Source of the DNA: Gaiellaceae bacterium | GTDB lineage: Bacteria; Actinomycetota; Thermoleophilia; Gaiellales; Gaiellaceae | Direction of reading: 5' to 3' | Assembly: GCA_036526375.1 (NCBI GenBank) | Contig: DATCYP010000095.1 | Span: 2,133 to 66,132 of the forward strand | Length of the DNA: 64,000 nt | Part shown: positions 6,617 through 52,529 of the stretch, piece after piece | How positions within the stretch are numbered: position 1 is the stretch's first letter | How the letters are laid out: every line of letters begins with the position of its first letter | Program-made: the position numbers and the translations under genes | Notes under the pieces: model-generated | What the model was told of the DNA's origin: nothing | The model's database searches: none | Seen by the model: only the letters and a program-made list of their open reading frames with translations

Positions 6617-7252
6617 ATGATCGTGGCGATCGACGGGCCCGCCGGCGCGGGGAAGAGCACGGTGGCGCGCGCGCTCGCCGAGCGCCTCGGCTTCCGCTAC
6701 CTCGACACCGGCGCGATGTATCGCGCGCTTACGTGGCTGGCCATGCAGCGGAGACTCGACCTCGGCGACGCGCAGGGGCTGGCGCAGCTCGCGCGCGAGC
6801 AGCCGGTGCTCTTCTCCGACGACGACCGCGTCTGGATCGCGGGCACCGACGTCACGTCCTCGATCCGCGAGACCCGCGTCGACCGGATGGTGCCGGTCGT
6901 GGCGCGCCACCATCCCGTTCGCGAGGTGATGCGCGAGCGGCAGCGCGAGCTCGGGCGCGACGGCGACGTCGTGATCGAGGGACGCGACATCGGCACCGTC
7001 GTCGCTCCCGACGCCGAGGTGAAGGTGTTCCTCGTCGCCGACCGCGACGAGCGGGCGAAGCGGCGCGTCGCCGAGCGGCCCGGTATCGGCGCCGACGCGC
7101 TCGCCACCGACCTCCGCCTCCGCGACGAGAGCGACGCGGCGCGGATGCAGCCGGCCCCCGACGCGATCGAGATCGACACCACGAGCCTCGAGGTCGAGGA
7201 CGTCGTCGACCGGATCGAGGCGCTCGTCGACGAGCGCTCGGCTGCGGCGTGA
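6617..7252 (+). CDS. cmk: cytidylate kinase
   Basis: [21 protein letters not shown]...LDTGAMYRA; 211 aa. Confidence 0.95.
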
Positions 7253-7932
7253 AGTCGGAGGACGTCGTCTGGACCTTCGGTCGGCCGGTGCTCGGCTTCC
7301 CGACCGCGGTCATGACCCGGCTCCGCTCGTACGGCACCGACCGGGTCCCGCGCACCGGCGGCGTCGTCCTCGCGTTCAACCACTTCAGTTGGATCGACAT
7401 CCCGTGCGTCGGGTACGTCGCGGGGCGCCACCTCAACTTCCTCGCCAAGGTCGAGGCGCACGGCGTTCCAGGCCTCGGGCAGCTCATTCGCGGCTTCGGC
7501 ACGCTCTCGGTGCGCCGCGGCGAATCCGACCGCGACGCGGTGCGCAGGATGCGCGAGGTCGTCCGAGACGGCGGGGCCCTCGGCGTCTTCGTCGAGGGGA
7601 CGCGCCAGCGGAGCGGCGTCCCCGGCCACGTGCAGCCGGGTGCGGCGATGGTCGCGCTGCAGGAGGACGTGCCGGTGATCTGCGCCGCCATCCACGGCTC
7701 GCAGGACTGGCGGCTGGGCAACTTCGCGCCCGTCTCGATCGCGTGGGGCGAGCCGATGCGCTTCGAGGGGCTGCCACGCGGGGCCAAGGGCTACCGCGAG
7801 GCGTCGGCGCAGATCGAGGCCGAGCTCTACCGCCTCTGGAGCTGGCTGCGCGATCTGCACGAGGCGGGAAGGCCGCGCGTCGCGGTCCCGCCGGCGCGGG
7901 ACGACGCCGCACCGGTCACGCTTCCGGCGTGA
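7249..7932 (+). CDS. plsC: 1-acyl-sn-glycerol-3-phosphate acyltransferase family protein
   Basis: NHFSWIDI (HX4D) and VFVEGTR motifs. GTG 7249 overlaps the cmk TGA (GTGA). Confidence 0.8.
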
Positions 7933-9293
7933 CCGATCTCGAGGACATCGACTCCGGCGAGCTCCCCGCGCCGCCGCCTCCGCCGCTGCTGGGCGCGGTC
8001 GCGATCATCGGCTTCCCGAACGTCGGCAAGTCGACGCTCGTCAACCGGCTGACCGAGACGCGCGCGGCCGTCGTCCACGAGACCCCGGGCGTGACGCGCG
8101 ACCGGAAGGAGCTCGTCTGCGAGTGGACGGGGAAGCGCTTCGTCCTCGTCGACACCGGCGGCGTCGACATCGCCGACCCTGCGCCGCTGACGCGGGCGAT
8201 CGCACAGCAGGCGCGGGAGGCGGTCGGGGAGGCGGATCTCGTCCTCTTCGTCGTCGACGCGCGCGCCGGGGTGACGCCCGGGGACGAGGAGATCGCCCAG
8301 ATCCTGCGGGAGGCGCGCAAGCCGGTGCTCGTGCTCGCGAACAAGATCGACGACCCGAGCCAGGAGCCGTTCGCCCTCGAATTGCACCGCCTCGGGCTCG
8401 GCGACCCGATCCCGATCTCGGGACTGCACGGGACGGGCAGCGGCGACCTGCTCGACCGCATCGTCGAGGAGCTCGAGCGGCTGGCGCCGGCCGGGCGGCC
8501 CTCGCTTCCCGACGACGCGATCCGTGTCGCGATCCTCGGCCGGCCCAACGTCGGCAAGTCGAGCCTCGTCAACGCGCTGCTCGGGCGCGAGCGGCTGATC
8601 GTGAGCGAGATCCCGGGCACGACGCGGGATGCCGTCGACACCGTCCTCGAGCGCGGCGAGCGCACCTTCGTCCTCATCGACACCGCCGGCCTCCGGCGCA
8701 AGCGGCGGCACCGGCAGGGCGTCGAGTACTACTCCGAGCTCCGCGCGCTCGAGGCGGCCGAGCGGGCCGACGTCGCGCTCGTCCTGATCGACTCCTCGGA
8801 GGGGATCGTGGAGCAGGACATCGCCGTCGCGGACGTCTCCCGGCACGCCGACTGCTCGACGCTCGTCGTTCTCTCGAAGTGGGACGCGACAACGATCCGC
8901 GTCGAGGACGTCCGCGGCGAGCTGCGCCGGCGGCTCCGCCAGCGGCCGCCCTTCGTCGCCGTCTCCTCGCACACGGGACGCGGGCTCGAGCGGCTGCTCG
9001 ACGGCGTCGCCGAGCTGTTCGACCGGCACACGGCCCGGGTCCCGACGGCGGAGCTGAATCGCGCGTTCGCGGAGCTGCGCGAGGCGCGGCAGCCGCCGAG
9101 CGGCCCGCGAGGCCGCAGGCTCAACCTCCTTTACGGCGCGCAGATCCGGGTTCGGCCGCCCCGCTTTCGCGTCTTCGTCAACGACCCCGGGCTCGTCACG
9201 CGCGACTACGGCTATTGGGTCGAGAACCGGCTGCGGGAGCGTTTCGGCCTCGACGGCGTCCCGGTCTCGATCGACTTCGTGAAACGATCCTGA
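7929..9293 (+). CDS. der: ribosome biogenesis GTPase Der (EngA)
   Basis: Two GTPase domains ([18 protein letters not shown]) plus a KH-like C-terminus. GTG 7929 overlaps the plsC TGA. Confidence 0.9.
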
Positions 9294-9295
9294 CG

Positions 9296-10249
9296 ATGCG
9301 CTTCCTGGTGGTCGGTGCGGGCTCGTGGGGGACGGCGTTCACGGGCGTGCTGCTCGAGCGGGGCCACGACGTCGTGCTCGCGTGCCGCTCGCGGGAGCAG
9401 GCCGAGGCGATCGCGAGCACCGGCTGGAACCCTCGCTACCTGCAGGGCGTGAACCTCGGCGCGGCCGAAGCGGTGGCGCTCGCGGACGCCCCGGGCGACG
9501 TCGACGTGGTGGTCGCAGCCGTGCCGAGCCAGGCCTTTGCCGAGGTCGTCGAGGCGCTGAGGGGCGACGCGCCGGTCCTCAGCCTCGCGAAGGGACTCGA
9601 CCCCGAGACCGGCGAGCGTCTGTCCACGCGCGTCAGGGGCCGGTCGGTGGCGGTGCTCTCGGGCCCGAACATGGCGGAGGAGATCGCCGAGGGCCTGCCG
9701 ACGGCGGCGGTGATCGCGAGCGAGGACGGCTTCCTCGCGGGCCAGCTCCAGCACGCGCTGAACTCGAGCCTCTTCCGCGCCTACGTCAATCCGGACCTCG
9801 TCGGCGTCGAGCTGTGCGCGGCGGCGAAGAACGTGATCGCGCTCGCGGCCGGCGGCGTCGACGGGCTGGGCCTCGGCGACAACGCGAAGGCCTCCCTCAT
9901 CGCGCGCGGCCTCGCGGAGATGGCGCGGCTCGGGGAGGCGGCGGGCGCGCGCCCGGAGACGTTCGCGGGCCTCGCCGGGATCGGCGACCTGGTGGTGACG
10001 TGCTGGAGCCGCCACGGCCGCAACCGCCACGCGGGCGAGCTGATCGCGCAGGGGCTGACGCCCGACCGGGCCGTCGCGGAGATCGGCCAGACGGTGGAGG
10101 GCCTCACGACGGCCCCGATCCTGCGCGACCTCTCGCACAGGCTCGGCGTCGAGCTGCCGATCACGGAAGGCGTCTGCGCCGTCCTCTCCGGCCAGAGCCT
10201 CACCGACCTGGCCGCCGGGCTGATGGGCCGGGAACCGACGGAGGAGTGA
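9296..10249 (+). CDS. gpsA: NAD(P)H-dependent glycerol-3-phosphate dehydrogenase
   Basis: [14 protein letters not shown]..., [20 protein letters not shown] motifs. Confidence 0.9.
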
Positions 10250-10261
10250 GGCCGCGTTGGC

Positions 10262-10267
10262 TAGCCT
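10262..10267 (+). promoter_or_regulatory. -10-like TANNNT box (TAGCCT) for metK
   Basis: TAGCCT lies 7 nt before ATG 10275. Confidence 0.4.
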
Positions 10268-10274
10268 GCCGGTC

Positions 10275-11519
10275 ATGTCCAAGCGCGCGTTCTCCTTCAC
10301 GTCCGAGTCGGTCACCGAGGGCCATCCCGACAAGATGGCCGACCAGCTCTCCGACTCGGTGCTCGATGCCGTCCTGGCCGACGACCCAGAGGGGCGCGTC
10401 GCCTGCGAGACGCTGATCACGACCGGACTCGTCGTCGTCGCCGGCGAGATCACGACCGATACGTACGTGGACATCCCGCGCCTCGTCCGCGAGAAGATCC
10501 GCGAGATCGGGTACACGCGCGCGAAGTTCGGCTTCGACGCCGAGACGTGCGGTGTCGTCGTCGCGATCGACGAGCAGTCGCCCGACATCGCGCAGGGGGT
10601 CGACCGCTCCTACGAGCAGCAGCACGGCGACAGCGACCCACTCGACCGCGAAGGTGCGGGCGACCAGGGGATGATGTTCGGCTACGCGTCGAACGAGACG
10701 GACGAGCTGATGCCGCTGCCGATCATGCTGGCGCACCGGCTGGCGCGGCGGCTCGCAGAGGTGCGGAAGGCCGACGTGCTCCCGTACCTGCGCCCCGACG
10801 GGAAGACGCAGGTCACCGTCCGCTACGAGATCGACGAGCACGGCCGCCACCGGCCCGTGGAGATCGAGCGCGTGCTCATCTCGACGCAGCACCGCGACGG
10901 GCTCGATCCTGAGACGCTGCTCAAGCCCGACCTGATCGAGCACGTGATCGAGCCGATCCTGCCCAGGGATCTCTACGACCAGCGGCGGCTCGAGCACGAC
11001 CGCGACTTCGTCTACTGCAATCCGACCGGCAAGTTCGTGATCGGCGGGCCGATGGGGGACACCGGCCTGACGGGGCGGTAGATCATCGTCGACACGTACG
11101 GCGGCGCGGCTCCGCACGGCGGCGGTGCGTTCTCGGGCAAGGACCCGACGAAGGTCGACCGCTCGGCGGCCTACGCGGCGCGCTGGGTGGCGAAGAACGT
11201 CGTCGCGGCGGGCCTCGCCGAGCGCTGCCAGATCCAGGTCGCGTACGCGATCGGGGTGGCGCATCCGCTCTCGGTGCTCGTCGAGACGTTCGGAACCGAG
11301 GCGATCCCCGTGCCGCGGATCGAGGAGCTCGTCGGCGAGCACTTCGACCTGCGCCCGGCCGCGATCCTCCGCGACCTCGAGCTGCGCCGGCCGATCTACG
11401 CGAAGACCGCCGCCTACGGCCACTTCGGCCGCGAGGACGGCGACTTCACCTGGGAGCGGACCGACCGCGCCGAGGCGCTGCGCGCGGCGGCGGGGCTCGC
11501 CGAGCCTACGACGGTCTGA
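10275..11519 (+). pseudogene. metK: S-adenosylmethionine synthase interrupted by an in-frame TAG at 11079-11081
   Basis: One frame encodes a full MetK ([58 protein letters not shown]). The TAG sits where the invariant Lys belongs. Confidence 0.9.
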
Positions 11520-12195
11520 CGAACAGCCCGGCGGCGGCCTTCTCCGAGATCGCCCGCTCGCCGACCTTCTCGATCGCGACCGTGAACTGATCCGCGGCCG
11601 GCTCGGCCGCGCGCACGAGGATGCTCGTGCCCGGCACGAGACCCTGGTCGTAGAACCAGTGCAGGAGGTCGCCGTCGTGCTCCGCGAGGCGGACGATCGT
11701 GGCCCGCGTTCCGGCCGACAGCGTGGCGAGCGGCGCCAGCTCGGCATTCTCCGCCTGCTCCACCGCCGGATCGACGGGCCAGCCGTGCGGGCAGCGCTGC
11801 GGATGGCCCAGCTTGTCGTCGATCCGCTCGATCATCTCGTCGCTGAAGGTGTCGCCGAGCTCGTCGGCCCGTTCGTGGGACTCGTACCCGGTGTAGCCCA
11901 TGAAGTCGGTCAGGAGCCGCTCGATGATCCGGTGCTTGCGGACGACGCGCTCGGCGCGCTCGCGGCCCGTCTCGGTGAGGAGCGCCTCCTTCTTCTTGCC
12001 GCGCTCGATCAGCCCCTCCGCCTCGAGCCGCTTCAGCATCTCGCCGGCGGACGCGCGCGAGACGTGGAGCATCTCGGCCACGCGCGAGGCGAGGGGAGGG
12101 GAACCGGCGCCGTGCGGCGTGTACTCGCCGATCGGGAAGGCGAGGAAGTAGATCGTCTCGAGGTACTCGTCCACTGAGTGGCCGGCGGCAGGCAC
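11506..12195 (-). CDS. DtxR/MntR/IdeR-family metal-dependent transcriptional regulator with C-terminal FeoA/SH3-like domain
   Basis: 229 aa. [32 protein letters not shown] (HTH) and [10 protein letters not shown] motifs. GTG 12195; GTG 12174 is an alternative start. Confidence 0.85.
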
Positions 12196-42682: not shown

Positions 42683-45600
42683 GTGCATCTGCGCGCCGTC
42701 AAGCTGCGTGGCTTCAAGTCGTTCCCCGACCCGGTCGAGATCCGTCTCGAGCCGGGCGTCGGCGTGATCGTCGGGCCGAACGGCTCCGGCAAGTCGAACG
42801 TCTCCGACGCCATCCGCTGGGCCGCCGGCTCCCTCAGCCCGACGGAGCTGCGGGCCGAGAAGCCCGACGACGTCCTCTTCGCCGGCGGCGGCTCGCGTGG
42901 GCCGGCCGACTTCTGCGAGGTCGAGCTCCTCTTCGACAACGCGGACGGGGCGTTGCCGGTCGACTACGCGGAGCTCTCGGTCGCGCGCCGGCTGCACCGC
43001 GGCGGCGAGGGGCAGTACCTCGTCAACCGTGCGGCGGTGCGGCGGCTCGACCTCGTGGAGCTCCTCGCCGATCTCGGGCTCGGCCAGGGGATGCACTCGA
43101 TCATCAGCCAGGGGAAGGTCGAGGCGATCCTCGCGTCGCGGCCCGCCGAGCGGCGGGCGCTGATCGAGGAGGCCGCGGGGCTCGGGCGCTTCAAGGCCCG
43201 TCGCCATCGCGCCGAGCTGAAGCTCGCGCGGGTCGCCGTCGAGGTCGAGCGCGCCCGCGACGTCGAGGCGGAGGTCCGGAAGCGGCTCCGGCCGCTGGCG
43301 CTCCAGGCGACGGCGGCCGAACGCGCGCAGAAGCTCGCAGTCGAGATTGCACGCCTGCGGGCGCGCATCGCGCAGCTCGATCTCGCGGGACTCGAGGAGC
43401 GGCTCGCGGAGCTCGAGACACGGCGCGCAACCGCCGCCGGCGGGCGGCGCGGAGTGGAGGAGAGGCTCGAGGCGCTGCTCGCCGAGCGCGGGCGCGCCGA
43501 GGAGGAGCTCGCGGACGCTGCGGGCGCGCGCGAGCAGGCGCTGCAGGCTCTGTACCGGCTCCGGAGCGCGGTGGAACGTCTCGAGCTGCGGCGCGAGTCG
43601 GCGACGTCGCTGGTGGCCGAGACACGGGCGCGGCACGAGTCGGCCGCAGCCGAGGCCGGCGATCCCGCGGTCGAGCTCGCGGACCTAGAGCGCGCTTCCG
43701 AGAGCGCGGCCGCGACCGCGCAGGCGGCGGCGGTGGAGCGGGAGGCGTCCGCGGAGCGCGCTCGCCGGGCTCTGACGCTCCTGCTCGTCGCCGAGGTCGA
43801 AGAGCGGCGCGGGCAGGAGGCCCGGCTGGACGAGCTCCTCGCGGAACGGCGCGGCATCGAGGGGGAGCTGACGGGCGCGGCCGGCGAGCGCGAAGCGGCA
43901 CTCGCGGTCTCCTACGAGCTCCGCTCACGAGTCGCGGGGCTCTCGGTGCAGCGGGAGTCCGCGGAGCGGCTCGCAGTCCGGCTCCGCGCCGACCTCGCCG
44001 ACGCCGAGGCCGAGGCTGCCCGCGGCGGACCCTCGCCGCGCGATCTCGAGCAAGAGGCTCTGGCGGCGCGCGCGCGGGCCCGGGAGGCGCTGCACGAGCG
44101 GGACACGCTCGCCGAACGGGCGCGGACCGCGGCCGAGCGGCTCGTGGCGCTCGAGCTGTCCCTGGCCGAGCGTGAGGGGATTCCGCCGGCAGCCCGGGCG
44201 CTCGCCGAGGAAGGCGAGCGGCTCGTGCTCGCCGAGATCGAGGTCGAGGAGGGGCGCGAGCGCGCGGTCGCCGCCGCGCTCGGGCCGCGGGCGGCGGCTC
44301 TCCTGGCCGACGACGCCGAGGCGGCTCTCGCGCTGCTCGAGCGGGCGGCTGCACTCGGGCTCGGCTCGCTCGTGGTCGTCGCCGGACGGAACCCACGCGA
44401 CCTCGTGGCCGATCTCCCGGTCGTCGAGCGCGACGAGCTGCTCGCGTCGGCGACGCCCGCCGTGACCGCCGACGGCTTCGGCTACGACCCGAGCACCGGC
44501 GAGCTCTGGTACGCGGGCGAGACCGCCGAGGCAGTCCTCCTCGAGCTCGACGTGCGGCGGCGCGCGCTTGCCGACGAGGCGAAGACGCTCGCGGAGCAGG
44601 CCCGGTTCGCCGAGCGGAAGGCGACCGAGGCGGACGAACGGGCCGTCGCCGCCGAGAGCGCGTTCGCGGCCGTGGCGCCGCGGCTCGCGATCCGCCGCGC
44701 CGACCCGGGGACTCTTTCGGCCCTGGCCACCGCAGCCCGTCGTCTCGAGCAGGCGCTGACGGGACTCGACCCACGTGTCGAGCGGATCGAGGCTCCTCTG
44801 CGGGCTCGCGGCGAGGCGGGCGCGGAGCGCACCGGCGAGCTCGGCGAGCGGCTGCGGACGATCGCCGAGAGTGAAGCCGCGCTGCGGCGCGAGCTCGCGG
44901 AGGCCGCCGAGCGCATCGCCGGGGCCGAGCGCGATCTGCTGCGGCTCGGCGGCGGGCCGGTGGCCGCCGACGCCGAGGCAGGAGACGCCGTTTCGCTCCG
45001 GACGGAGGCGCAGTCGCTCGTCGCCGCCGCCGACGCCGCGGCACTCCGTGCGAGCGAGGCCGGCGAGAGCGCGCGCGCCGCGGAGACGGCGCGCATCGAC
45101 GCCGCGGTGCGAGCCGGCCGCCGCCGGGCCCGGCCGCACGAGCTCGCGCGCGTCGTCGGCGCGGCCGAGCGGCTCGACTCCGCGCTCCTCGCCACAGCGG
45201 CTGCAGCCGCCCGCTTCGAGTCGCCGCTCCGCGAGGACGTGGACGCAGGCGCCGCGCGCAGCGGCGAGCTCGGCGCGGAACTGCGTCGGCTCGGCGCCGC
45301 CGAGGTCGAGCTGCGGCAGGAGCTCGCCGCCGCAGCCGAGGCCGTCTCCGCCCTCGAGGTCGAGGCTGCCCGGCTCGACGCCGAGGCCGACGAGGCGCGC
45401 CGGCGCTTCGAGCACGCCAGCTCAACGCTGGAAGCGTCGGCGGCCGAGCGGCCGACGCCCGGCGGGAAGACCGCGCCCTCGGCGCCTAGGGACGAGCCGG
45501 CAGAAGGGGACGACCGCGAGCAGCTCGTCGCCACCGCCGAACGCCTCGAGCGCCGCCGCGAGACGCTCGGCCAGGTCAACCCGTTCGCGCAGGAGGAATA

Positions 45601-46192
45601 TGAGGCCGAGAAGGTGCGACTCGAGGAGCTCGCGACGCAGCGGGCTGACCTCGAGGACAGCCTCACCGAGCTCGAGAAGCTCCGCAACGAGCTGACGGAG
45701 ACGGTCGAACGCCGCTTCGCCGAGACGTTCGACGCCGTGCGGCGGCATTTCTCCGACGTGACGGCGACGGTCTTCCCGGGCGGCGAGGGGCGCCTCCGGC
45801 TGACCGAGGCGGACGAGGACGAGGACGAACCGGGCGTCGAGGTCGAGCTGCGTCCCGCCGGCAAGCGGGTGCAGCGGCTGTCGCTGCTCTCGGGCGGCGA
45901 GAAGGCGCTCGGCGCGATCGCGTTCCTCTTCGCGCTCTTCCTCGCTCGGCCGTGCCCGTTCTACCTCCTCGACGAGGTCGAGGCTGCGCTCGACGACACG
46001 AACATCGGGCGCTTCGTCGAGCTGCTCCGCCGTTACTCCGACCGGGCCCAGTTCGTCGTGATCACGCACCAGAAGCGGACGATGGAGGCCGCCGACGTCC
46101 TCTACGGCGTGACGATGGGCGGCGAGGGCGTCTCGCAGGTCGTCTCGCGCCGCCTGCCGCGGGAGGAAGCGAAGCTCGCGGGCGCCGCCTAG
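42683..46192 (+). CDS. smc: chromosome segregation protein SMC
   Basis: 1169 aa. GPNGSGKSN Walker A, long A/E/R coiled coils, hinge, LSGGEK signature, LLDEVEAALD Walker B. Confidence 0.95.
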   Translation: MHLRAVKLRGFKSFPDPVEIRLEPGVGVIVGPNGSGKSNVSDAIRWAAGSLSPTELRAEKPDDVLFAGGGSRGPADFCEVELLFDNADGALPVDYAELSVARRLHRGGEGQYLVNRAAVRRLDLVELLADLGLGQGMHSIISQGKVEAILASRPAERRALIEEAAGLGRFKARRHRAELKLARVAVEVERARDVEAEVRKRLRPLALQATAAERAQKLAVEIARLRARIAQLDLAGLEERLAELETRRATAAGGRRGVEERLEALLAERGRAEEELADAAGAREQALQALYRLRSAVERLELRRESATSLVAETRARHESAAAEAGDPAVELADLERASESAAATAQAAAVEREASAERARRALTLLLVAEVEERRGQEARLDELLAERRGIEGELTGAAGEREAALAVSYELRSRVAGLSVQRESAERLAVRLRADLADAEAEAARGGPSPRDLEQEALAARARAREALHERDTLAERARTAAERLVALELSLAEREGIPPAARALAEEGERLVLAEIEVEEGRERAVAAALGPRAAALLADDAEAALALLERAAALGLGSLVVVAGRNPRDLVADLPVVERDELLASATPAVTADGFGYDPSTGELWYAGETAEAVLLELDVRRRALADEAKTLAEQARFAERKATEADERAVAAESAFAAVAPRLAIRRADPGTLSALATAARRLEQALTGLDPRVERIEAPLRARGEAGAERTGELGERLRTIAESEAALRRELAEAAERIAGAERDLLRLGGGPVAADAEAGDAVSLRTEAQSLVAAADAAALRASEAGESARAAETARIDAAVRAGRRRARPHELARVVGAAERLDSALLATAAAAARFESPLREDVDAGAARSGELGAELRRLGAAEVELRQELAAAAEAVSALEVEAARLDAEADEARRRFEHASSTLEASAAERPTPGGKTAPSAPRDEPAEGDDREQLVATAERLERRRETLGQVNPFAQEEYEAEKVRLEELATQRADLEDSLTELEKLRNELTETVERRFAETFDAVRRHFSDVTATVFPGGEGRLRLTEADEDEDEPGVEVELRPAGKRVQRLSLLSGGEKALGAIAFLFALFLARPCPFYLLDEVEAALDDTNIGRFVELLRRYSDRAQFVVITHQKRTMEAADVLYGVTMGGEGVSQVVSRRLPREEAKLAGAA

Positions 46193-46195
46193 GCT
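46190..46195 (+). promoter_or_regulatory. -10-like TANNNT box (TAGGCT) built on the smc stop codon
   Basis: TAG plus GCT lies 7 nt before GTG 46203. Confidence 0.35.
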
Positions 46196-46202
46196 CCCGT
46201 CC

Positions 46203-47315
46203 GTGCTCTACGAGCCGGGCGCGTTCGAGCCGCTGACCGACGAGCCGTGGGACGAGGCGCGTGTCCGCGACGGCATCGCCGCCGTCGTGGCGGGCGCCGA
46301 GGCGGCGCTCGATCCCGACGTCCTCTGGCCGGCGCACGAGTGGGACGGCTGGAACGCCGCGCAGCCGATGAAGAACCTCTACGTCGGAGCGGCGGGCGTG
46401 GTGTTCGCCCTCGACGACCTGCAGCGCCGCGGCCTGGCCGAGACGAGGCTCGACCTTCCCGCGGTTGCGCTGCGCGCGCTCGAGCGCTGGCGCGCGGAAC
46501 CGGACTTCATGGAGGGCGAGTCCCTGCCCGACCCGCCCGAGTCCGGCCTGCTCACGGGCGAGACAGGGATCCTCCTCGTCGCGTGCAGACTCGGACTCGG
46601 GCTCGAGGCGGACCTGAAGGCTCGGATCCGCGCCAACCTCGCCAACGAGGCCGAAGACCTGATGTGGGGCACGCCCGGGACGCTGGTCGCTGCCGTCGCG
46701 ATGGAGTGGGACGATCTGGCCCGAGAGTCGGCCGACGCGCTCGTCGCCCGCCGCGACGCCGACGGCCTGTGGACGCAGCGGCTGTGGGGTGCGAGCTTCC
46801 AGGGCGTCGGCCCCGTGCACGGGCTCACCGGCAACGTGCGGGCGCTCCTCCAGGTCGACCATCCGCGGAACGAGTCGCTTCGCGTCGAGTCCGCCGCCGC
46901 GCTCGCGCGTACCGCGACGCGCGAGGAGGGGCTCGCGAACTGGAGCAGCGAGGGCAAGCTCCAGTGGTGCGCCGGCGCGCCCGGGATCGTCTCCGCTGCG
47001 CGCGACTACCTCGACGAGGAGCTGCTCCTCGCCGGTGCGGAGCTCGTCTGGCAGGCGGGCCCGCCCGGCCCCGAGAAGGGACACGGGATCTGCCACGGCA
47101 CCTCGGGCAACGGCTTCGCGCTGCTCGCCGCGTTCGAGCGAACCCGGGACGAGCTGTGGCTCGACCGGGCGCGCCGCTTCGCCGTCCACGCGCTCGCGCA
47201 GGCGGAGCGCATGCCGGCGCGGCAGTCGCTCTTCACGGGCGGTCCGGGGACCGCGCTCTTCGCCGCCGCGTGCCTGGACGCCAACGCGCGCTTCCCGGTG
47301 CTCGAGCGCCGCTAG
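46203..47315 (+). CDS. stand-alone LanC-like (lanthionine synthetase C-like) protein
   Basis: Repeated GxxG toroid motifs. PVHGLTG, WCAGAPG and ICHGTSGNG match the LanC His and Cys-Cys-His zinc site. Confidence 0.8.
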   Translation: MLYEPGAFEPLTDEPWDEARVRDGIAAVVAGAEAALDPDVLWPAHEWDGWNAAQPMKNLYVGAAGVVFALDDLQRRGLAETRLDLPAVALRALERWRAEPDFMEGESLPDPPESGLLTGETGILLVACRLGLGLEADLKARIRANLANEAEDLMWGTPGTLVAAVAMEWDDLARESADALVARRDADGLWTQRLWGASFQGVGPVHGLTGNVRALLQVDHPRNESLRVESAAALARTATREEGLANWSSEGKLQWCAGAPGIVSAARDYLDEELLLAGAELVWQAGPPGPEKGHGICHGTSGNGFALLAAFERTRDELWLDRARRFAVHALAQAERMPARQSLFTGGPGTALFAAACLDANARFPVLERR

Positions 47316-47944
47316 GCGAGCGCGGCTTCGAGCGCTGCGCGGTCCGCCGGCTCGCCGTGGGCCGGGAGCACGAGCTCGACGGGCAGGTCGAGCAGCGGGC
47401 GGAGCCGTTCGGCGACATCGTCCCGGGTCACGTGCTTGCGACCTCCGAGCTGGATGCCCAGCCCGTCGCCGAAGTTCGAGAGCGAGTCGCCGCTGACGAG
47501 CGCGCCGACGGACGGCAGCCAGAAGACGAGGTCGTTGTCCTCGCGACCTGCGTAGGCGTGCATGCCGAACGGCCACGGGCCGGGCCCGTGGAACTCGCCC
47601 TCGCCCTCGCCCGCCCGCAGCCAGGCGAGGTCCTCGCTCTCCATGCCGCGCACACGGTCCGGGTCCACGCCGAACTTCTCCACCCAGTCCTGCCAGGTGT
47701 CGGCGGGCGGCGTGTGCACCGGCAGGCCGAGCCCGCGGGCGTCGCGCTCGTGGTACGGCGCGGTCAGGATGACCGCGGTCGCGCGCTCGCGCAGCTCGCC
47801 GGGAACGGACAGCGGGTCGAACAACACCAGGTCGCCGCCGAGCTCGATCGCGTACGACGACACTTCCTGCGGCCACCAGTCGTCCCCGGTCCAGTCCGGG
47901 TGCGGGGTCTGCCAGTGCCAGAGACCGGGCCGCAGCTCGCGCAT
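47312..47944 (-). CDS. MBL-fold metallo-hydrolase-like protein
   Basis: 210 aa. LWHWQTP...VLFDP...TAPYHERD...SGDSL...PAHG pattern. Convergent with the LanC-like gene, overlapping it by 4 nt. Confidence 0.6.
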   Translation of the reverse strand: MRELRPGLWHWQTPHPDWTGDDWWPQEVSSYAIELGGDLVLFDPLSVPGELRERATAVILTAPYHERDARGLGLPVHTPPADTWQDWVEKFGVDPDRVRGMESEDLAWLRAGEGEGEFHGPGPWPFGMHAYAGREDNDLVFWLPSVGALVSGDSLSNFGDGLGIQLGGRKHVTRDDVAERLRPLLDLPVELVLPAHGEPADRAALEAALA

Positions 47945-47950
47945 CCGCCG

Positions 47951-47956
47951 ATCCTA
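47951..47956 (-). promoter_or_regulatory. -10-like TANNNT box (TAGGAT) for MBL-fold gene
   Basis: Lies 6 nt before ATG 47944. Mirror image of the aminopeptidase box. Confidence 0.4.
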
Positions 47957-47971
47957 GCCGCGCGGTCCGCA

Positions 47972-47977
47972 TAGGAT
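47972..47977 (+). promoter_or_regulatory. -10-like TANNNT box (TAGGAT) for aminopeptidase triplet
   Basis: Lies 7 nt before ATG 47985. Confidence 0.4.
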
Positions 47978-47984
47978 CTTTGCG

Positions 47985-49166
47985 ATGGACGAACGCCTCG
48001 AGCGCTACGCAGAGCTCGCCGTCCGGGTCGGCGCCAACGTGCAGCCGGGTCAGGAGGTCTTCCTCTTCGCCGCGGTCGAGCATCACGATCTCGCTCGGGC
48101 CCTCACGCGCCAGGCCTACCGCGCCGGCGCCTCCTACGTGAACGTCCTCTACAGCGACATGCACGCGCGCAAGGCGATGATCGAGCTCGGCCCGGACGAG
48201 GCCCTCACCTATGCGCCCGGGTGGCTGAAGGACTTCGTCACCTCGATCGCCGGCAACGCGTTGATCGCCACGACCGGCGATCCGGAGCCGGATCTGCTGG
48301 CCGACCTCGACGGCGAGCGCGTCGGTCGAGCCGTACCGCAGGAGATCGTGCAGATCCGGATGCAGCAGATGGGCGAGAACTCCGTCAACTGGGTCGGCGT
48401 CGGTGCACCGGGTGAGGAGTGGGCGCGCCAGGTGTTCGGAGAGCCGGACGTCGAGCGCCTGTGGGAGGCCGTCGCGTACTGCATGCGCCTCGACGAGCCG
48501 GACCCCGCAGCCGCCTGGAGCGAGCACCTCGCACGGCTCGAGGCGCGAACGACGCAGCTGAACGAGCTCAAGGCCGACGCGCTCCGCTATCGCGGCCCCG
48601 GTACCGACCTGACGGTGGGATTGCTCGCGAACGCCCGCTGGGAGTCGGGCTCCTCCACGACCTCGGGCGGGATCACCTACGTCGCGAACATGCCGACGGA
48701 GGAGCTCTTCACCTCGCCGGACGCGCGCCGCACCGAAGGGACGATCCGCCAGACGCTGCCGCTGCCTCTCTCCGGCCAGGTCGTGCGCAATCTGGAGCTG
48801 ACGTTCGAGGGGGGGCGGGCCGTCCGGGTCGAGGCCGAGAGCGGAGCCGACCTCGTTCGCAGCCACTTCGCGACGATCGAGAACGCCGACCGCCTCGGCG
48901 AGGTGGCGCTCGTGACGAAGGAATCCCGCGTCGGTCAGACGGGGCTGGTCTTCAACGACCCGCTGTACGACGAGAACGCGACCTGCCACATGGCGTACGG
49001 AGCCGCGTTTCCGTTCCTGCTCGACGGCGAGCCCGGCGAGGGATTCAACGTGGCGAACATGCACGTCGACTTCATGGTCGGCGGACCCGAGCTCGAGGTG
49101 GACGCGGTGATGCCGGACGGAGCCGAGGTCCCGCTGATTCGCAACGAGGAGTGGCAGCTGGCGTGA
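47985..49166 (+). CDS. M29 family aminopeptidase (AmpS/PepS/aminopeptidase T-like), copy 1
   Basis: 393 aa. ANMPTEELFT, GEVALV, DENATCHMAYG and HVDFMVG metal-site motifs. Confidence 0.85.
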   Translation: MDERLERYAELAVRVGANVQPGQEVFLFAAVEHHDLARALTRQAYRAGASYVNVLYSDMHARKAMIELGPDEALTYAPGWLKDFVTSIAGNALIATTGDPEPDLLADLDGERVGRAVPQEIVQIRMQQMGENSVNWVGVGAPGEEWARQVFGEPDVERLWEAVAYCMRLDEPDPAAAWSEHLARLEARTTQLNELKADALRYRGPGTDLTVGLLANARWESGSSTTSGGITYVANMPTEELFTSPDARRTEGTIRQTLPLPLSGQVVRNLELTFEGGRAVRVEAESGADLVRSHFATIENADRLGEVALVTKESRVGQTGLVFNDPLYDENATCHMAYGAAFPFLLDGEPGEGFNVANMHVDFMVGGPELEVDAVMPDGAEVPLIRNEEWQLA

Positions 49167-50365
49167 GCGTCGACGGCGACGACAACGGCAGGAGGCTCGA
49201 GCAGTACGCGGAGCTGGCCGTGCGTGTCGGCGCGAACGTACAGCCCGGGCAGGAGGTCTTCATCCAGCCGATGGTCGAGCACACCGAGCTCGCGCGGGCG
49301 CTCGTGCGGCAGGCCTACGAGGCGGGCGCCTCCTACGTGCACGTGGTCTACCGGGACGAGCACGTGAGGCGCGCGCGGATCGAACTCGGCCCCGACTCCG
49401 CGCTCACGTACTCGCCAGACTGGGAGATCGCGCTCACGGAGGCGGAGTCGGGCAACGCATCGATCGGGACGATGGGCAAGCCGGATCCGCAGCTGCTCGC
49501 AGACCTCGACGGAGAGCGCATCGGCCGTGCGGTCCAGGTGCAGATCGCGGAGATCGTGCAACGGCAGCATCGCGAGAGCAGCGTCAACTGGTGCGGCATC
49601 GGAGCGCCGAACGCGGGCTGGGCGAAGCAGGTCTTCGGCGAGCCCGACGTCGAGCGGCTGTGGGACAAGGTCGCCTTCTGCATGCGGCTCGACGAGCCGG
49701 ACCCGGTCGCCGCCTGGCGCGAGCACATCGCCCGGCTCGACGCCCGCGCCGAGACGCTCACGGCGCTCCGGCCGGACGCGCTCCGGTACCGCGGCCCCGG
49801 CACCGACCTCACGGTCGGCCTCCTGCCGACCGCGCGCTGGGGGAGCGCCCGCTTCCGCACCTCCGGCGGGATCGACTACGTCGCGAACATGCCGACGGAG
49901 GAGATCTTCACCACTCCCGACTCCCGGCGCGCGGAGGGGACGATCCGGTCGAGGAAGCCGCTCTCCCTCAACGGCCAGATCATCCGCGGCCTGCAGTTCA
50001 CGTTCGAGGAGGGGCGGATCGTCGGCGTCGACGCCGAGCAGGGCGCCGATCTCGTCCGCAGTCAGATCGCCACGAACGAGAACGCCGACCGGCTGGGCGA
50101 GCTCGCGCTCGTCACGAGCGAGTCGCGCGTCGGACAGTCGGGGACGCTCTTCTTCGACACGCTCTTCGACGAGAACGCGACCTGCCACATCGCCTACGGG
50201 ATGGGGCTGCCGTACGCGTTCGACGGCGAGCCCGACGAGCGCACGAACGCGTGCAACGTCCACGTCGACTTCATGGTCGGGGCGCCCGAGCTCGAGGTGG
50301 ACGCGGTGCTCGCCGACGGGAGCGAGGTGCCGCTGATCCGGAACGAGGAATGGCAGCTGGCGTAA
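49163..50365 (+). CDS. M29 family aminopeptidase, copy 2
   Basis: Paralog of copy 1 with the same motifs intact. GTGA overlap with copy 1. Confidence 0.85.
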   Translation: MSVDGDDNGRRLEQYAELAVRVGANVQPGQEVFIQPMVEHTELARALVRQAYEAGASYVHVVYRDEHVRRARIELGPDSALTYSPDWEIALTEAESGNASIGTMGKPDPQLLADLDGERIGRAVQVQIAEIVQRQHRESSVNWCGIGAPNAGWAKQVFGEPDVERLWDKVAFCMRLDEPDPVAAWREHIARLDARAETLTALRPDALRYRGPGTDLTVGLLPTARWGSARFRTSGGIDYVANMPTEEIFTTPDSRRAEGTIRSRKPLSLNGQIIRGLQFTFEEGRIVGVDAEQGADLVRSQIATNENADRLGELALVTSESRVGQSGTLFFDTLFDENATCHIAYGMGLPYAFDGEPDERTNACNVHVDFMVGAPELEVDAVLADGSEVPLIRNEEWQLA

Positions 50366-51549
50366 CCGACGAGCGGCTCGAGCGCTATGCCGAGCTCGCC
50401 GTTCGGATCGGTGCGAACGTGCAGCCGGGCCAGGAGGTGTTCATCGGCGGGATGGTCGAGCACGCGGAGTTGATCCGGGCGCTCGCGCGGCAGTCGTACC
50501 TGGCGGATGCCTCCTACGTCCACGTCGCGTACGACGACCAGCACGTCCATCGCGCGAGGATCGAGCTCGGGCCGGACGAGATGCTCTCGCACTCGCCCGA
50601 GTGGTTGAAGACCCTGGCCGAGGAGAGCAGCGGACACGCTCAGCTCGGGACGATGGGGAATCCCGAGCCGGAGCTGCTCGCCGACCTCGACGGCGATCGT
50701 GTCAGCCGCGCGATCCCGCTGGAGGCCCTGGAGATCTTCCAGCGCCAGCTCGCGGATCGCACGGTCAACTGGTGCGGCGTCGGCGCGCCGAACGAGGGCT
50801 GGGCGGCGCAGGTCTTCGGGGAGCCCGACGTCGAGCGGCTCTGGGAGCTCGTCGCCTTCTGCTTCCGCCTCGACGAGCCCGATCCCGTCGCCGCCTGGAC
50901 CGAGCATCTCGACCGGCTCGAGGCGCGCGGCGCCGCCCTGACCGCGCTCCGGCCCGACGCGATCCGCTACCGCGGTCCCGGCACCGATCTCACGGTCGGC
51001 CTGCTCCCGACCGCACGCTGGGTCAGCGCCCGCTTCCGCACGGTGTCGGACATCGAGTACGTCGCGAACATGCCGACGGAGGAGATCTTCACGACGCCCG
51101 ATCCGCGTCGCGCAGAGGGGACGATCCGCTCGAGCCTGCCGCTCTCGCTCGGCGGACAGCTGATCCGGGGCCTCGAGTTCACGTTCTCGGACGGACGGAT
51201 CACCGGCGTCGAGGCCGAGACCGGCGCCGACCTCGTGCGCGGGCACATGGCGACGATCGAGAACGCCGACCGCCTGGGCGAGCTCGCTCTCGTCACCAAC
51301 GAGTCGCGGGTCGGCCAGACCGGCACGCTCTTCTACAACACGCTCTTCGACGAGAACGCGACGTGCCACATCGCCTACGGGTTCGGGATCCCCACCGCGT
51401 TCGACGGTGAGCCCGACGAGGCGATGAACGTCTCGAACATGCACGTCGACTTCATGGTCGGCAGCCCGGAGCTCGAGGTCGACGCGCTGCTCGAGGACGG
51501 GACGGCCGTGCCGCTCGTCCGCGAGGAGACCTGGCAGCTCGAGCGGTGA
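50350..51549 (+). CDS. M29 family aminopeptidase, copy 3
   Basis: Paralog with the same motifs intact. ATG 50350 lies inside the last codons of copy 2 (16-nt overlap). Confidence 0.85.
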   Translation: MAAGVTDERLERYAELAVRIGANVQPGQEVFIGGMVEHAELIRALARQSYLADASYVHVAYDDQHVHRARIELGPDEMLSHSPEWLKTLAEESSGHAQLGTMGNPEPELLADLDGDRVSRAIPLEALEIFQRQLADRTVNWCGVGAPNEGWAAQVFGEPDVERLWELVAFCFRLDEPDPVAAWTEHLDRLEARGAALTALRPDAIRYRGPGTDLTVGLLPTARWVSARFRTVSDIEYVANMPTEEIFTTPDPRRAEGTIRSSLPLSLGGQLIRGLEFTFSDGRITGVEAETGADLVRGHMATIENADRLGELALVTNESRVGQTGTLFYNTLFDENATCHIAYGFGIPTAFDGEPDEAMNVSNMHVDFMVGSPELEVDALLEDGTAVPLVREETWQLER

Positions 51550-51572: not shown

Positions 51573-52529
51573 ATGGCGCGGAGTTGGGGGGAGCTGCTGG
51601 GCGAGCCGGACGCGGGGGTCGAACCCGAGGAGCAGGGCGAAGGCCGCTTCTTCTCGCGGCTGCGCGACTCGCTCTCGAAGTCGCGCCGCGCGCTCACCGG
51701 CGAGCTTGTCGCGGCCGCGTCCTTCGATCCCGGGAACGACGCCGACTGGGAGCGCCTCGAGGAGGCGCTGATCGCCGGCGACGTCGGTGTCCGCGCGACC
51801 GCCGAGCTCGTGCGGAGGCTGGAGGCGCGCGGCGAGCTCGTGGATCTGAACGCGGCGCTGGCGGACGAGGTGGCTGGGCTCTTCGGCGAGCCGCCGGTCC
51901 TCGACGTCGCCCACGAGCCCGCCGTGATCCTCGTCGTCGGCGTCAACGGAACCGGCAAGACGACCACCATCGGCAAGCTGGCGGCGCGGCTCGCCGAGTG
52001 CGGCCGGTCGATCGTCGTCGCCGCCGCCGACACCTACCGCGCGGCCGCGGAGGAGCAGCTCGAGATCTGGGCGAAGCGGGCCGGCGCGGACTTCGTCGGC
52101 TCCGAGCGCGGCGCGGATCCGGCGGCGGTCGCCTACGACGCGCTCGAGGCAGCCGTCGCGCGCGGCCGCGACGTCGTCGTCGTCGACACGGCCGGCCGCC
52201 TCCACACGCAGACCAACCTCATGGAGGAGCTCGCGAAGGTGCGCCGCGTCATCGCCGGCCGCCTCGACGGGGCGCCGCACGAGACGCTGCTCGTCGTCGA
52301 CGCGACGACCGGACAGAACGGCGTCCAGCAGGCGCGATTGTTCGGCGAGGCGGTCGGCGTCACCGGGGTCGTGCTCACGAAGCTCGACGGCTCCGCGAAG
52401 GGCGGAGTCGCGATCCCGATCGCCTACGAGCTCGGCCTGCCGGTGAAGCTCGTCGGTGTCGGAGAGGCGCTCGAGGACCTGCAGCCGTTCGACCCGCGCG
52501 ACTACGCGCGGGCGCTCGTGGCCGGGTAG
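51573..52529 (+). CDS. ftsY: signal recognition particle receptor FtsY
   Basis: VGVNGTGKTTT, DTAGR, TKLDGSAKGG motifs; 318 aa. Confidence 0.95.
   Translation: MARSWGELLGEPDAGVEPEEQGEGRFFSRLRDSLSKSRRALTGELVAAASFDPGNDADWERLEEALIAGDVGVRATAELVRRLEARGELVDLNAALADEVAGLFGEPPVLDVAHEPAVILVVGVNGTGKTTTIGKLAARLAECGRSIVVAAADTYRAAAEEQLEIWAKRAGADFVGSERGADPAAVAYDALEAAVARGRDVVVVDTAGRLHTQTNLMEELAKVRRVIAGRLDGAPHETLLVVDATTGQNGVQQARLFGEAVGVTGVVLTKLDGSAKGGVAIPIAYELGLPVKLVGVGEALEDLQPFDPRDYARALVAG

What the first reader, a model, noticed from the sequence alone, without database searches (positions are those of the whole stretch)
46203..51549. 5.3-kb accessory insertion between smc and ftsY: LanC-like + MBL-fold + three M29 aminopeptidases
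The rnc-smc-ftsY-ffh order is widely conserved, with smc followed directly by ftsY. Here five genes are wedged between them. They are a stand-alone LanC-like protein, a convergent MBL-fold protein (4-nt overlap), and three translationally coupled M29 aminopeptidase paralogs read divergently from the MBL-fold gene via mirrored TAGGAT boxes. This combines a thiol-Michael-addition type enzyme, a metallo-hydrolase and triplicated exopeptidases, with no precursor peptide, dehydratase or transporter in view. It could be a peptide-modification or peptide-salvage module that I do not recognise as a described system. It could equally be a chance juxtaposition.
Basis: inference. Interest (0 to 1): 0.6.

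Follow-up and report, generated by a model that had tools for sequence, protein, structure and literature searches.

The report
Variable gene slot between smc and ftsY
The five genes wedged between smc and ftsY in this uncultured soil actinobacterium (Gaiellaceae) are real, but comparison with 65 related genomes shows that they accumulated in layers and come and go independently, so they are a variable slot and not one peptide-processing system.

Summary
Between smc and ftsY lie a LanC-like gene, a convergent MBL-fold gene and three tandem M29 aminopeptidase paralogues. Outgroup families have smc directly followed by ftsY.

The "one module" reading does not hold. The genome is a Gaiellaceae MAG.
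- In 65 genomes of the genus with M29 at this site, the array has 1-4 copies.
- LanC-like and MBL each occur in about half, and independently. Of 62 scorable loci, 14 have both, 17 LanC only, 16 MBL only and 15 neither. Independence predicts 15 with both.
- Five genomes carry a GST and several a cupin instead.
- Ten other Thermoleophilia MAGs have smc-LanC-ftsY with no M29 or MBL.
- None of 80 LanC-like loci has an M29 within 10 kb.
- The MBL orthologue sits elsewhere in many genomes.
- The M29 array keeps its own conserved TAGGAT -10 box whatever lies upstream.

Best reading: a recombination-prone slot holding three separate units. These are an older LanCL-type zinc enzyme, a relocating degenerate MBL-fold protein, and an anciently triplicated M29 family with differential loss.

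Two details are odd. All three M29 copies lack the Tyr of the EEHYHD hexad, and the LanC-like protein has Ala at the enolate-stabilising position.

Another window of this scan noted a similar locus (cupin-LanC-2×M29). Interest is low to moderate.

The parts
42683..46192 (+). smc, upstream anchor of the slot
   Evidence: Pfam SMC_N 202 bits. In outgroups it is directly followed by ftsY.
46203..47315 (+). Stand-alone LanC-like (LanCL-type) protein of 370 aa. The Zn ligands C256, C297 and H298 and the acid H206 are kept. Ala257 replaces the His/Tyr that stabilises the enolate.
   Evidence: Pfam LANC_like. The best PDB matches are eukaryotic LANCL2 and LANCL1. The residue roles come from PMC9934072. 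The gene is the older resident of the site.
47312..47944 (-). Small MBL-fold protein of 210 aa, convergent with the LanC-like gene. The HxHxDH motif is degenerate (TAPYHERD).
   Evidence: Lactamase_B 24.2 bits. The model has pLDDT 89 and its top fold match is 2p97 at TM 0.67-0.70. The orthologue lies elsewhere in many genomes.
47945..47984 (.). 40-bp divergent spacer. ATCCTA is at 47951-47956, 6 nt from the MBL ATG. TAGGAT is at 47972-47977, 7 nt from the M29a ATG.
   Evidence: Sequence. The TAGGAT or TACGAT box before the first M29 is conserved in all ten relatives compared, whatever gene lies upstream. The MBL-side arm is ATCCTA again only in G009 and G022.
47985..49166 (+). M29 aminopeptidase paralogue a (393 aa)
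   Evidence: Peptidase_M29 E 4e-118. Thermus aminopeptidase T 2ayi matches at E 3e-85. It belongs to orthologue group a.
49151..50365 (+). M29 aminopeptidase paralogue b. The start is GTG 49151 or GTG 49163, overlapping the end of a.
   Evidence: Peptidase_M29 E 3e-122. Orthologue group b has 99/99 support.
50350..51549 (+). M29 aminopeptidase paralogue c. The start is ATG 50350, a 16-nt overlap with b.
   Evidence: Translation. Peptidase_M29 E 4e-115. It groups with c-type copies.
51573..52529 (+). ftsY, downstream anchor of the slot
   Evidence: TIGR00064 at 312 bits.

Best explanation
The smc|ftsY junction in this Gaiellaceae lineage is a tolerated insertion slot that has accumulated unrelated cargo in layers. 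It is not a single functional system.

**Layer 1, oldest.** This is a stand-alone LanCL-type zinc protein placed 10 nt after smc. It is inferred to catalyse thiol addition to an electrophile such as a dehydroamino acid, as LanCL1 does. In this subclade the enolate-stabilising residue is Ala.

**Layer 2.** This is an M29 metallo-aminopeptidase gene inserted once next to ftsY in the ancestor of a subclade of the genus.
- It duplicated early into three paralogue groups (a, b, c).
- Since then copies have been differentially lost or re-duplicated, giving 1-4 copies. This genome keeps all three.
- The array has its own conserved -10 box, TAGGAT, 6-9 nt before the first start codon. That spacing is typical of leaderless transcripts.
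- The downstream copies are translationally coupled by overlapping stop and start codons.
- The inferred function is cytosolic N-terminal trimming of peptides with diverged specificities.

**Layer 3.** This is a small MBL-fold gene without the canonical metal motif. It is read divergently from the array. It alternates between this site and another chromosomal locus in different species.

The gene identities, the anatomy and the evolutionary history are shown by the data. The enzymatic activities and the transcription units are inferred.
For: **Ancestral state**
- Outgroup families and the more distant species of the genus have smc directly followed by ftsY.

**The M29 array is the constant part**
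- 67 of 133 genomes of the genus carry a/b/c-type M29.
- Among 65 loci with M29 at smc|ftsY, the array has 1 copy in 25, 2 in 33, 3 in 6 and 4 in 1.
- The M29-bearing genomes are monophyletic on a tree of the flanking genes, with 100/99 support.
- The M29 tree shows groups a, b and c predating the species splits.
- The TAGGAT/TACGAT box and the start context of the first M29 are conserved in all ten relatives compared, whether LanC or MBL lies upstream.

**LanC-like and MBL vary independently**
- Of 62 loci where both can be scored, 14 have both, 17 LanC only, 16 MBL only and 15 neither. Independence predicts 15.0 with both.
- Five of the "neither" loci have a GST and three have a cupin in the upstream position.

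**LanC-like is older and unlinked to M29**
- None of 80 LanC-like loci across Thermoleophilia has an M29 within 10 kb.
- Ten of them show smc-LanC with no M29 next to it. In nine ftsY follows directly, with no MBL either. The tenth, L067, ends in an MBL fragment at its contig end.
- On the LanC tree the M29-associated copies are a terminal subclade (100/98) inside a clade that also holds most of the smc-linked copies without M29.

**The MBL gene moves**
- The MBL orthologue (80-87% identity) lies at another locus in at least ten genomes, in a syntenic context in G018, G020, G012 and G023.

**No sign of a mobile element or recent transfer**
- There is no composition shift across the block, no flanking repeats and no RNA family match.
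Against: - Within the subclade the LanC-like gene is the same-strand upstream neighbour of the M29 array in 17 genomes, 24-49 nt away in most. Read-through co-transcription cannot be excluded.
- Two different MBL paralogues (types 1 and 2, about 55% identical) occupy the same divergent position in different genomes. This could reflect selection for an MBL-M29 pairing.
- Two unrelated thiol-transferase folds, LanCL-type and GST, recur immediately upstream of the array. This hints at a shared theme.
- All genomes are related MAGs, so the census counts are not independent events.
Confidence: 0.72

Rival explanations
1. The LanC-like protein, the MBL-fold hydrolase and the M29 exopeptidases cooperate in one peptide-modification or peptide-salvage pathway and are kept together by selection.
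For: All three co-occur at the same site in 14 of 62 related loci. The gene spacing is tight. The LanC-like zinc site is intact.
Against: - Every subset occurs, and LanC and MBL presence is independent: 14 loci have both against 15.0 expected.
- Seven loci have M29 alone.
- Nine genomes have smc-LanC-ftsY with neither M29 nor MBL, and a tenth (L067) ends in an MBL fragment.
- None of 80 LanC-like loci has an M29 nearby.
- The MBL orthologue is elsewhere in many genomes.
- The array has a separate conserved promoter box.
- The intergenic spaces of 10, 40 and 23 nt leave no room for a precursor peptide.
- No LanB or LanM dehydratase domain was found in the genome. That genome is only 82% complete and the control genomes gave no hits either, so this is weak evidence.
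Confidence: 0.06
2. This is a thiol-conjugate breakdown theme. The M29 array trims the peptide moiety of low-molecular-weight-thiol conjugates, in a mercapturate-like route. The upstream slot is filled by whichever conjugating or thioester-handling enzyme the species uses: LanCL-type, GST, or a glyoxalase-II-like MBL fold.
For: - Two unrelated thiol-transferase folds take the same upstream position. LanC-like is there in 31 loci and GST in 5, with the GST only 9-12 nt from the M29 in the three intact cases measured.
- The closest solved relatives of the LanC-like protein are glutathione S-transferase LANCL1 and LANCL2.
- The genome encodes a gamma-glutamyltranspeptidase.
- One source annotates the MBL relatives as glyoxylase-like.
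Against: - Ten loci have M29 with only a cupin or with nothing upstream.
- LanC-like was at the site before M29 arrived, so that adjacency is explained by history.
- The MBL lacks the HxHxDH metal motif that glyoxalase II needs.
- Glutathione synthesis is not established. Only a 31-bit GSH-S_ATP hit was found, and the mycothiol ligase search was uninformative.
- The five GST genomes may trace to a single ancestral event.
Confidence: 0.12
3. MBL and M29 form a divergently regulated functional pair. They share the dyad GATCCTA-N15-TAGGATC as an operator for one regulator.
For: - The dyad with N15 spacing is present in G000, G009 and G022, and in weaker form in G004.
- Two MBL paralogue types occupy the same position.
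- MBL accompanies the array in 30 of 62 loci.
Against: - The MBL-side arm is not conserved in G005, G002 or G012.
- 32 of 62 loci have the array without MBL and still keep the TAGGAT box.
- The MBL orthologue lies in a context without M29 in at least ten genomes.
- Each arm sits 6-7 nt from a start codon, as a simple leaderless -10 box would.
- No regulator gene is present in the block.
Confidence: 0.07
4. The block is a recently acquired genomic island or mobile element.
For: - It interrupts a widely conserved gene pair.
- One relative (G012) has a roughly 190-bp element flanked by inverted repeats inserted at the smc stop.
Against: - GC content is 0.70-0.74, against 0.72-0.78 in the flanks.
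- There is no integrase or transposase, and no flanking direct or inverted repeats.
- The paralogue groups predate the species splits.
- The block is inherited vertically in a monophyletic clade.
Confidence: 0.03

Closest known systems
M29 aminopeptidases (Thermus aminopeptidase T 2ayi, S. pneumoniae PepS 4icq, S. aureus AmpS 1zjc, Listeria AmpII)
   Same: - They align over the full length, at E 3e-85 to 1e-63.
- The five metal-binding residues are present in all three copies: E in PTEE, E in GE(V/L)AL, H in CH(M/I)A, and H and D in HVD.
- The size is about 395 aa.
   Different: - The Tyr of the EEHYHD hexad is essential in Listeria AmpII, where Y352A is inactive (PMC7023490). Here it is Phe, Leu or Ile.
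- A Tyr sits four residues earlier instead.
- The genes form a tandem array of 1-4 old paralogues.
- No activity has been measured.
Eukaryotic LanCL1/LanCL2 (glutathione addition to dehydroamino acids) and bacterial LanC cyclases (NisC)
   Same: - It shows the LANC_like repeat pattern.
- The Zn ligands Cys-Cys-His are kept, as is the catalytic acid His that corresponds to His219 of LanCL1.
- It is stand-alone, like the LanCLs.
   Different: - There is no dehydratase, precursor peptide or transporter nearby.
- The position equivalent to LanCL1 His277 or NisC Tyr285 is Ala. The wider bacterial family has His there in 79 of 94 sequences.
- That position is hypervariable in the Gaiellaceae clade.
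- The thiol and the electrophile substrates are unknown.
Small MBL-fold 'putative metal-dependent hydrolases' (for example Ava_3068, PDB 2p97)
   Same: The predicted fold matches at TM 0.67-0.70 with Foldseek probability 1.0. The size is about 200 aa.
   Different: - Sequence identity is 17%.
- The canonical HxHxDH is replaced by P-Y/W-H-E-R.
- Only one His in that motif, one Asp (GDSL) and one His (AHG) are conserved.
- No function is known for either protein.
Variable insertion hot spots between conserved core genes (integration slots or 'genomic islets')
   Same: The flanking core genes are constant while the cargo varies among close relatives. The cargo includes LanC-like, MBL types 1 and 2, cupin, GST, a PabB-like gene, PPK2, MarR-ABC and 1-4 M29 copies.
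   Different: No recombinase, tRNA or repeat signature marks the site. The mechanism of turnover is unknown.

Membership tests
Peptidase family M29 | Full-length match to the Peptidase_M29 profile above the curated cut-off | tested here: met
   385-409 bits against a cut-off of 27 for all three copies.
Peptidase family M29 | Five metal-ligand residues (E, E, H, H, D) | tested here: met
   PTEE, GE(V/L)AL, CH(M/I)A and HVD are present in a, b and c and in nearly all orthologues. They align to the AmpT, PepS and AmpS residues.
Peptidase family M29 | Catalytic Tyr of the EEHYHD hexad, 7 residues after the first His | tested here: not met
   The residue is F in a, L in b and I in c. A Tyr lies at +3 instead. 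The alignments have no gap in this stretch. Listeria AmpII Y352A is inactive (PMC7023490). Other Gaiellales M29 paralogues share the Tyr-less form, so homology is certain but the standard mechanism is not.
Peptidase family M29 | Aminopeptidase activity | not testable with these tools
   This needs a purified-enzyme assay.
LanC / LanCL thia-Michael enzymes | LANC_like profile match | tested here: met
   62.5 bits against a cut-off of 23.2.
LanC / LanCL thia-Michael enzymes | Zn ligands Cys-Cys-His and the catalytic acid His | tested here: met
   C256, C297, H298 and H206 lie in invariant columns of 37-94 homologues.
LanC / LanCL thia-Michael enzymes | Enolate-stabilising residue after the first Cys (His in LanCL, Tyr in LanC, Lys/Asn/His in LanM) | tested here: not met
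   It is Ala257 here. LanCL1 H277A keeps kcat but loses about 4-fold in kcat/Km (PMC9934072).
Lanthipeptide biosynthetic gene cluster | Dehydratase (LanB, LanM, LanKC or LanL), precursor peptide and transporter near the cyclase | tested here: not met
   None lies in the block or its flanks. The LanM, LanL and LanKC models match only through the cyclase domain and far below their cut-offs. PF04738 and PF13575 were not found in the 82%-complete genome, but the controls gave no hits either.
Metallo-beta-lactamase superfamily | alpha-beta/beta-alpha MBL fold | tested here: met
   The model has pLDDT 89.4 and pTM 0.88. There are 433 PDB matches at E <= 0.001, all 50 listed ones MBL-fold proteins.
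Metallo-beta-lactamase superfamily | HxHxDH metal-binding motif | tested here: not met
   TAPYHERD in this protein and P(Y/W)HER across the family.
Conserved functional gene cluster (LanC + MBL + M29) | Co-location kept across independent lineages, with correlated presence and absence | tested here: not met
   14 of 62 loci have both against 15.0 expected under independence. None of 80 LanC-like loci has an M29 nearby. The MBL orthologue is elsewhere in at least ten genomes.
Mobile genomic island | Recombinase, flanking repeats or compositional anomaly | tested here: not met

The most novel reading that the evidence does not exclude
The M29 array may be a specialised set of exopeptidases, Tyr-less at the canonical catalytic position. 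They would degrade the peptide part of low-molecular-weight-thiol adducts made by whichever thiol-transferase sits upstream, LanCL-type in half the genomes and GST in the basal ones. That would be a bacterial, mercapturate-like repair or detoxification route for dehydroamino acids and other electrophiles, in an abundant uncultured soil lineage.
Probability: 0.1. Interest if true: 0.55.

Novelty: new member of a known kind. Interest (0 to 1): 0.25.

Why it matters
- It removes a tempting false lead. A stand-alone LanC-like gene next to hydrolases and peptidases looks like an undescribed peptide-modification system. A census of related genomes shows the parts are separable.
- It documents a clear example of a hypervariable cargo slot inside the otherwise rigid rnc-smc-ftsY-ffh backbone, in Gaiellaceae. 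These are an abundant soil group known almost only from metagenomes.
- It flags two enzyme subfamilies with altered catalytic positions that would be worth a biochemical look. One is the M29 group without the hexad Tyr. The other is the LanCL-like group with a hypervariable enolate-stabilising residue.

Tried and rejected
- **Recent horizontal transfer or mobile element.** Rejected. There is no GC shift, no flanking repeats, no recombinase and no RNA gene.
- **Conserved neighbours of LanC-like genes elsewhere in the order.** None is shared beyond close relatives.
- **The look-up of encoding contigs on three diverse LanC-like representatives.** The contigs were too short (1.5-3.7 kb) to be informative.
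- **Sigma-70 promoter and intrinsic terminator scan.** Nothing was found. This is expected for a 72% GC actinobacterium with TANNNT-only promoters.
- **Thiol cofactor.** The MshC search gave no hit at all, although the same search rang in all 14 control genomes, so it is uninformative for an 82%-complete MAG. The GSH-S_ATP hit is weak.
- **Sequence search of the MBL protein against PDB.** Only marginal hits came back. The fold had to be established from a model.
- **Literature.** No paper was found that links LanC-like proteins to mycothiol, or that bears on Gaiellaceae aminopeptidase genes.

Full report
**1. What is in the window**

- smc at 42683-46192
- a 370-aa LanC-like protein at 46203-47315
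- a convergent 210-aa gene at 47312-47944, on the minus strand, sharing 4 nt with the LanC stop
- three head-to-tail M29 genes ending at 49166, 50365 and 51549
- ftsY at 51573-52529

Profile searches confirm the identities.
- Pfam gives LANC_like at E 3e-17 and Peptidase_M29 at E 1e-115 to 1e-122 for the three copies. Lactamase_B is only just above threshold, at 24.2 against 22.7 bits.
- NCBIfam gives ftsY at 312 bits.

At DNA level the M29 units repeat every 1199 and 1181 nt at 70-83% identity.

Two starts need correction.
- M29c begins at ATG 50350, a 16-nt overlap with M29b.
- M29b begins at GTG 49151 or GTG 49163.

There is no Rfam match, no consensus promoter or terminator, and no flanking repeat pair. 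G+C does not differ from the flanks.

**2. The organism**

The window lies in a 2.1-Mb, 82%-complete MAG. Named homologues and related loci place it in Gaiellaceae, class Thermoleophilia. The genome holds five M29 genes and two LanC-like genes.

**3. The three proteins**

*M29*
- The closest solved relatives are Thermus aminopeptidase T, PepS and AmpS.
- The five metal ligands are intact in all copies.
- The Tyr of the EEHYHD hexad is essential in Listeria AmpII (PMC7023490). Here it is replaced by Phe, Leu or Ile, and a Tyr lies four residues earlier.
- This holds for every a/b/c orthologue. A similar Tyr-less form occurs in other Gaiellales paralogues.

*LanC-like*
- The best PDB matches are eukaryotic LANCL2 and LANCL1, not NisC.
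- In an alignment of 94 full-length bacterial relatives the Zn ligands and the acid His are nearly invariant, and all are present here.
- The residue after the first Cys is His in 79 of the 94, as in the LanCLs. It is Ala here.
- That residue stabilises the enolate. LanCL1 H277A keeps kcat but has about 4-fold lower kcat/Km (PMC9934072).
- In the Gaiellaceae clade this position is hypervariable: H, A, V, G, T, S, W, Y, F, D and L all occur.

*MBL*
- An AlphaFold model (pLDDT 89.4) matches MBL-fold structures. The top hit is 2p97 at TM 0.67-0.70.
- The HxHxDH motif reads TAPYHERD. Only one His, one Asp and one further His are conserved across the family.

**4. Comparative genomics: first sample**

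- In 16 genomes from four other families of the order, and in the more distant species of the genus, smc is followed by ftsY within 0.8 kb.
- In a subclade of the genus the interval is filled, but differently in each species:
  - LanC-MBL-M29×1: G005, G002, G012
  - LanC-M29×2: G018, G020
  - LanC-M29×1: G017
  - MBL-M29×3 without LanC: G009
  - cupin-MBL-M29×2: G022
  - GST-M29-PabB-like: G008
  - PPK2-LanC-MarR-ABC-hydrolase without M29: G024
- A tree of the flanking genes puts all M29-bearing genomes in one clade with 100/99 support. This indicates a single acquisition.
- The M29 tree resolves three paralogue groups that predate the species splits. Group b has 99/99 support and group a sits basal. 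One-copy and two-copy genomes are therefore products of differential loss.

**5. Genus-wide census**

- 67 of 133 genomes of the genus carry a/b/c-type M29.
- I fetched 60 further loci and classified them by tblastn.
- With the earlier ones, 65 loci have M29 at smc|ftsY. Copy number is 1 in 25, 2 in 33, 3 in 6 and 4 in 1.
- LanC and MBL can both be scored in 62 loci:

| State | Loci |
|---|---|
| LanC + MBL | 14 |
| LanC only | 17 |
| MBL only | 16 |
| Neither | 15 |

- Of the 15 with neither, 5 have a GST, which sits 9-12 nt upstream of the M29 in the three intact cases measured. Three have only a cupin and 7 have nothing.
- With LanC in 31 and MBL in 30 of 62, independence predicts 15.0 loci with both. 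The observed number is 14.
- These genomes are related, so this is descriptive and not a formal test. Even so, every combination exists.
- Six a/b/c-type M29 genes at other loci have none of these neighbours within 6 kb.

**6. Each partner on its own**

- A pattern scan of GTDB species genomes returned 80 LanC-like loci with 10-kb flanks.
  - None has an M29 nearby.
  - Ten show smc-LanC with no M29 beside it. In nine of them ftsY follows directly and there is no MBL. The tenth, L067, is a short contig that ends in an MBL fragment after LanC.
- On the LanC tree the M29-associated copies form a terminal subclade (100/98). It sits inside a 100/100 clade that also holds two smc-linked copies without M29 (L068, G024). 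The other seven such copies form a neighbouring group joined only weakly (81/51). LanC-like at this site is therefore older than the array.
- The MBL orthologue (80-87% identity) is present in most genomes of the genus.
  - In G018, G020, G012 and G023 it lies in a different, syntenic context.
  - G012 and G004 carry a 55%-identical paralogue at the smc|ftsY site instead.
  - In this genome the alternative context holds a different gene.

**7. Regulation**

- The 40-bp MBL/M29a spacer holds ATCCTA-N15-TAGGAT. Each arm is 6-7 nt from a start codon.
- The M29-side box (TAGGAT, or TACGAT in two genomes) and its surroundings are conserved in all ten relatives compared. This includes those where LanC, not MBL, lies upstream.
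- The MBL-side arm is ATCCTA again only in G009 and G022. It is AGCCTA in G004, and different in G005, G002 and G012.
- The simplest reading is two divergent -10 elements of the leaderless type. Another note of this scan describes that type window-wide (e1-3894315). A shared operator is the less simple reading.
- The array therefore has its own promoter.

**8. Conclusion**

The block is real, but it is a layered, variable slot and not one system. The enzymatic roles are inferred from family membership and are flagged where catalytic positions deviate.

A minority hypothesis cannot be excluded. It holds that thiol-transferase-type neighbours, LanCL-like or GST, together with peptidases reflect thiol-conjugate catabolism. 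It rests on the recurrence of two unrelated transferase folds upstream of the array, on a GGT in the genome, and on nothing more.

Noticed in passing
window 48990-49030, 50190-50230, 51370-51410 (the DENATCH..G.. motif of each M29 copy): All three M29 copies, and all their orthologues, lack the Tyr of the EEHYHD catalytic hexad (F, L or I at that position). A Tyr lies four residues earlier. Other Gaiellales M29 paralogues show a similar Tyr-less form, while the paralogue on contig C87 keeps the canonical Tyr.
   Followed up: partly
window 46965-46976 (QWCAGAPG): The LanC-like protein has Ala at the enolate-stabilising position, which is His in 79 of 94 bacterial relatives and in the LanCLs. 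Across the Gaiellaceae clade this one position is hypervariable (H, A, V, G, T, S, W, Y, F, D, L), while the Zn ligands stay invariant.
   Followed up: partly
L029 (G012:C2) about 9605-9790: A roughly 190-bp element bounded by perfect 20-nt inverted repeats (AGAGGCTTGATGTGAAATAG ... CTATTTCACATCAAGCCTCT) lies between the smc stop and the LanC start. It looks like a miniature inverted-repeat element.
   Followed up: no
L203 (G091:C16), L209 (G140), L211 (G126), L218 (G054), L047 (G008): In five genomes a glutathione S-transferase (GST_N + GST_C) sits directly upstream of the M29 array, in the position LanC-like holds elsewhere. In G008, G091 and G140 a chorismate-binding (PabB-like) gene follows the array. 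G091 has four M29 copies.
   Followed up: partly
G000 contig C104:2106-3194 (locus L008): A second LanC-like paralogue in the same genome (45% identity) keeps the canonical Cys-His. It belongs to a separate, more conservative clade found across Thermoleophilia.
   Followed up: partly
G000 contig C52:10650-11950: G018, G020, G012 and G023 keep the MBL orthologue in a slot between an FtsH-like gene and a roughly 500-aa gene. In this genome that slot holds a different 236-aa gene, so it is a second variable position. The 236-aa product looks like a peptidase E (S51) type to me. An 80-residue N-terminal fragment gave no Pfam hit, and the full protein was not scanned.
   Followed up: partly
L032 (G024:C15) 6651-11650: In one species the smc|ftsY interval holds PPK2, LanC-like, MarR, an ABC ATPase and an alpha/beta hydrolase, with no M29 (Pfam-checked).
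   Followed up: yes
L178, L179, L214, L227, L228, L229: Six single a/b/c-type M29 genes (66-80% identical to M29a) lie at loci away from smc and ftsY. None has a LanC, MBL or GST neighbour within 6 kb upstream. Their contexts were not examined further.
   Followed up: no
window 46190-46202: The smc stop TAG is the start of a TAGGCT box 7 nt before the LanC GTG. The same layout is conserved in G018 and G020.
   Followed up: partly
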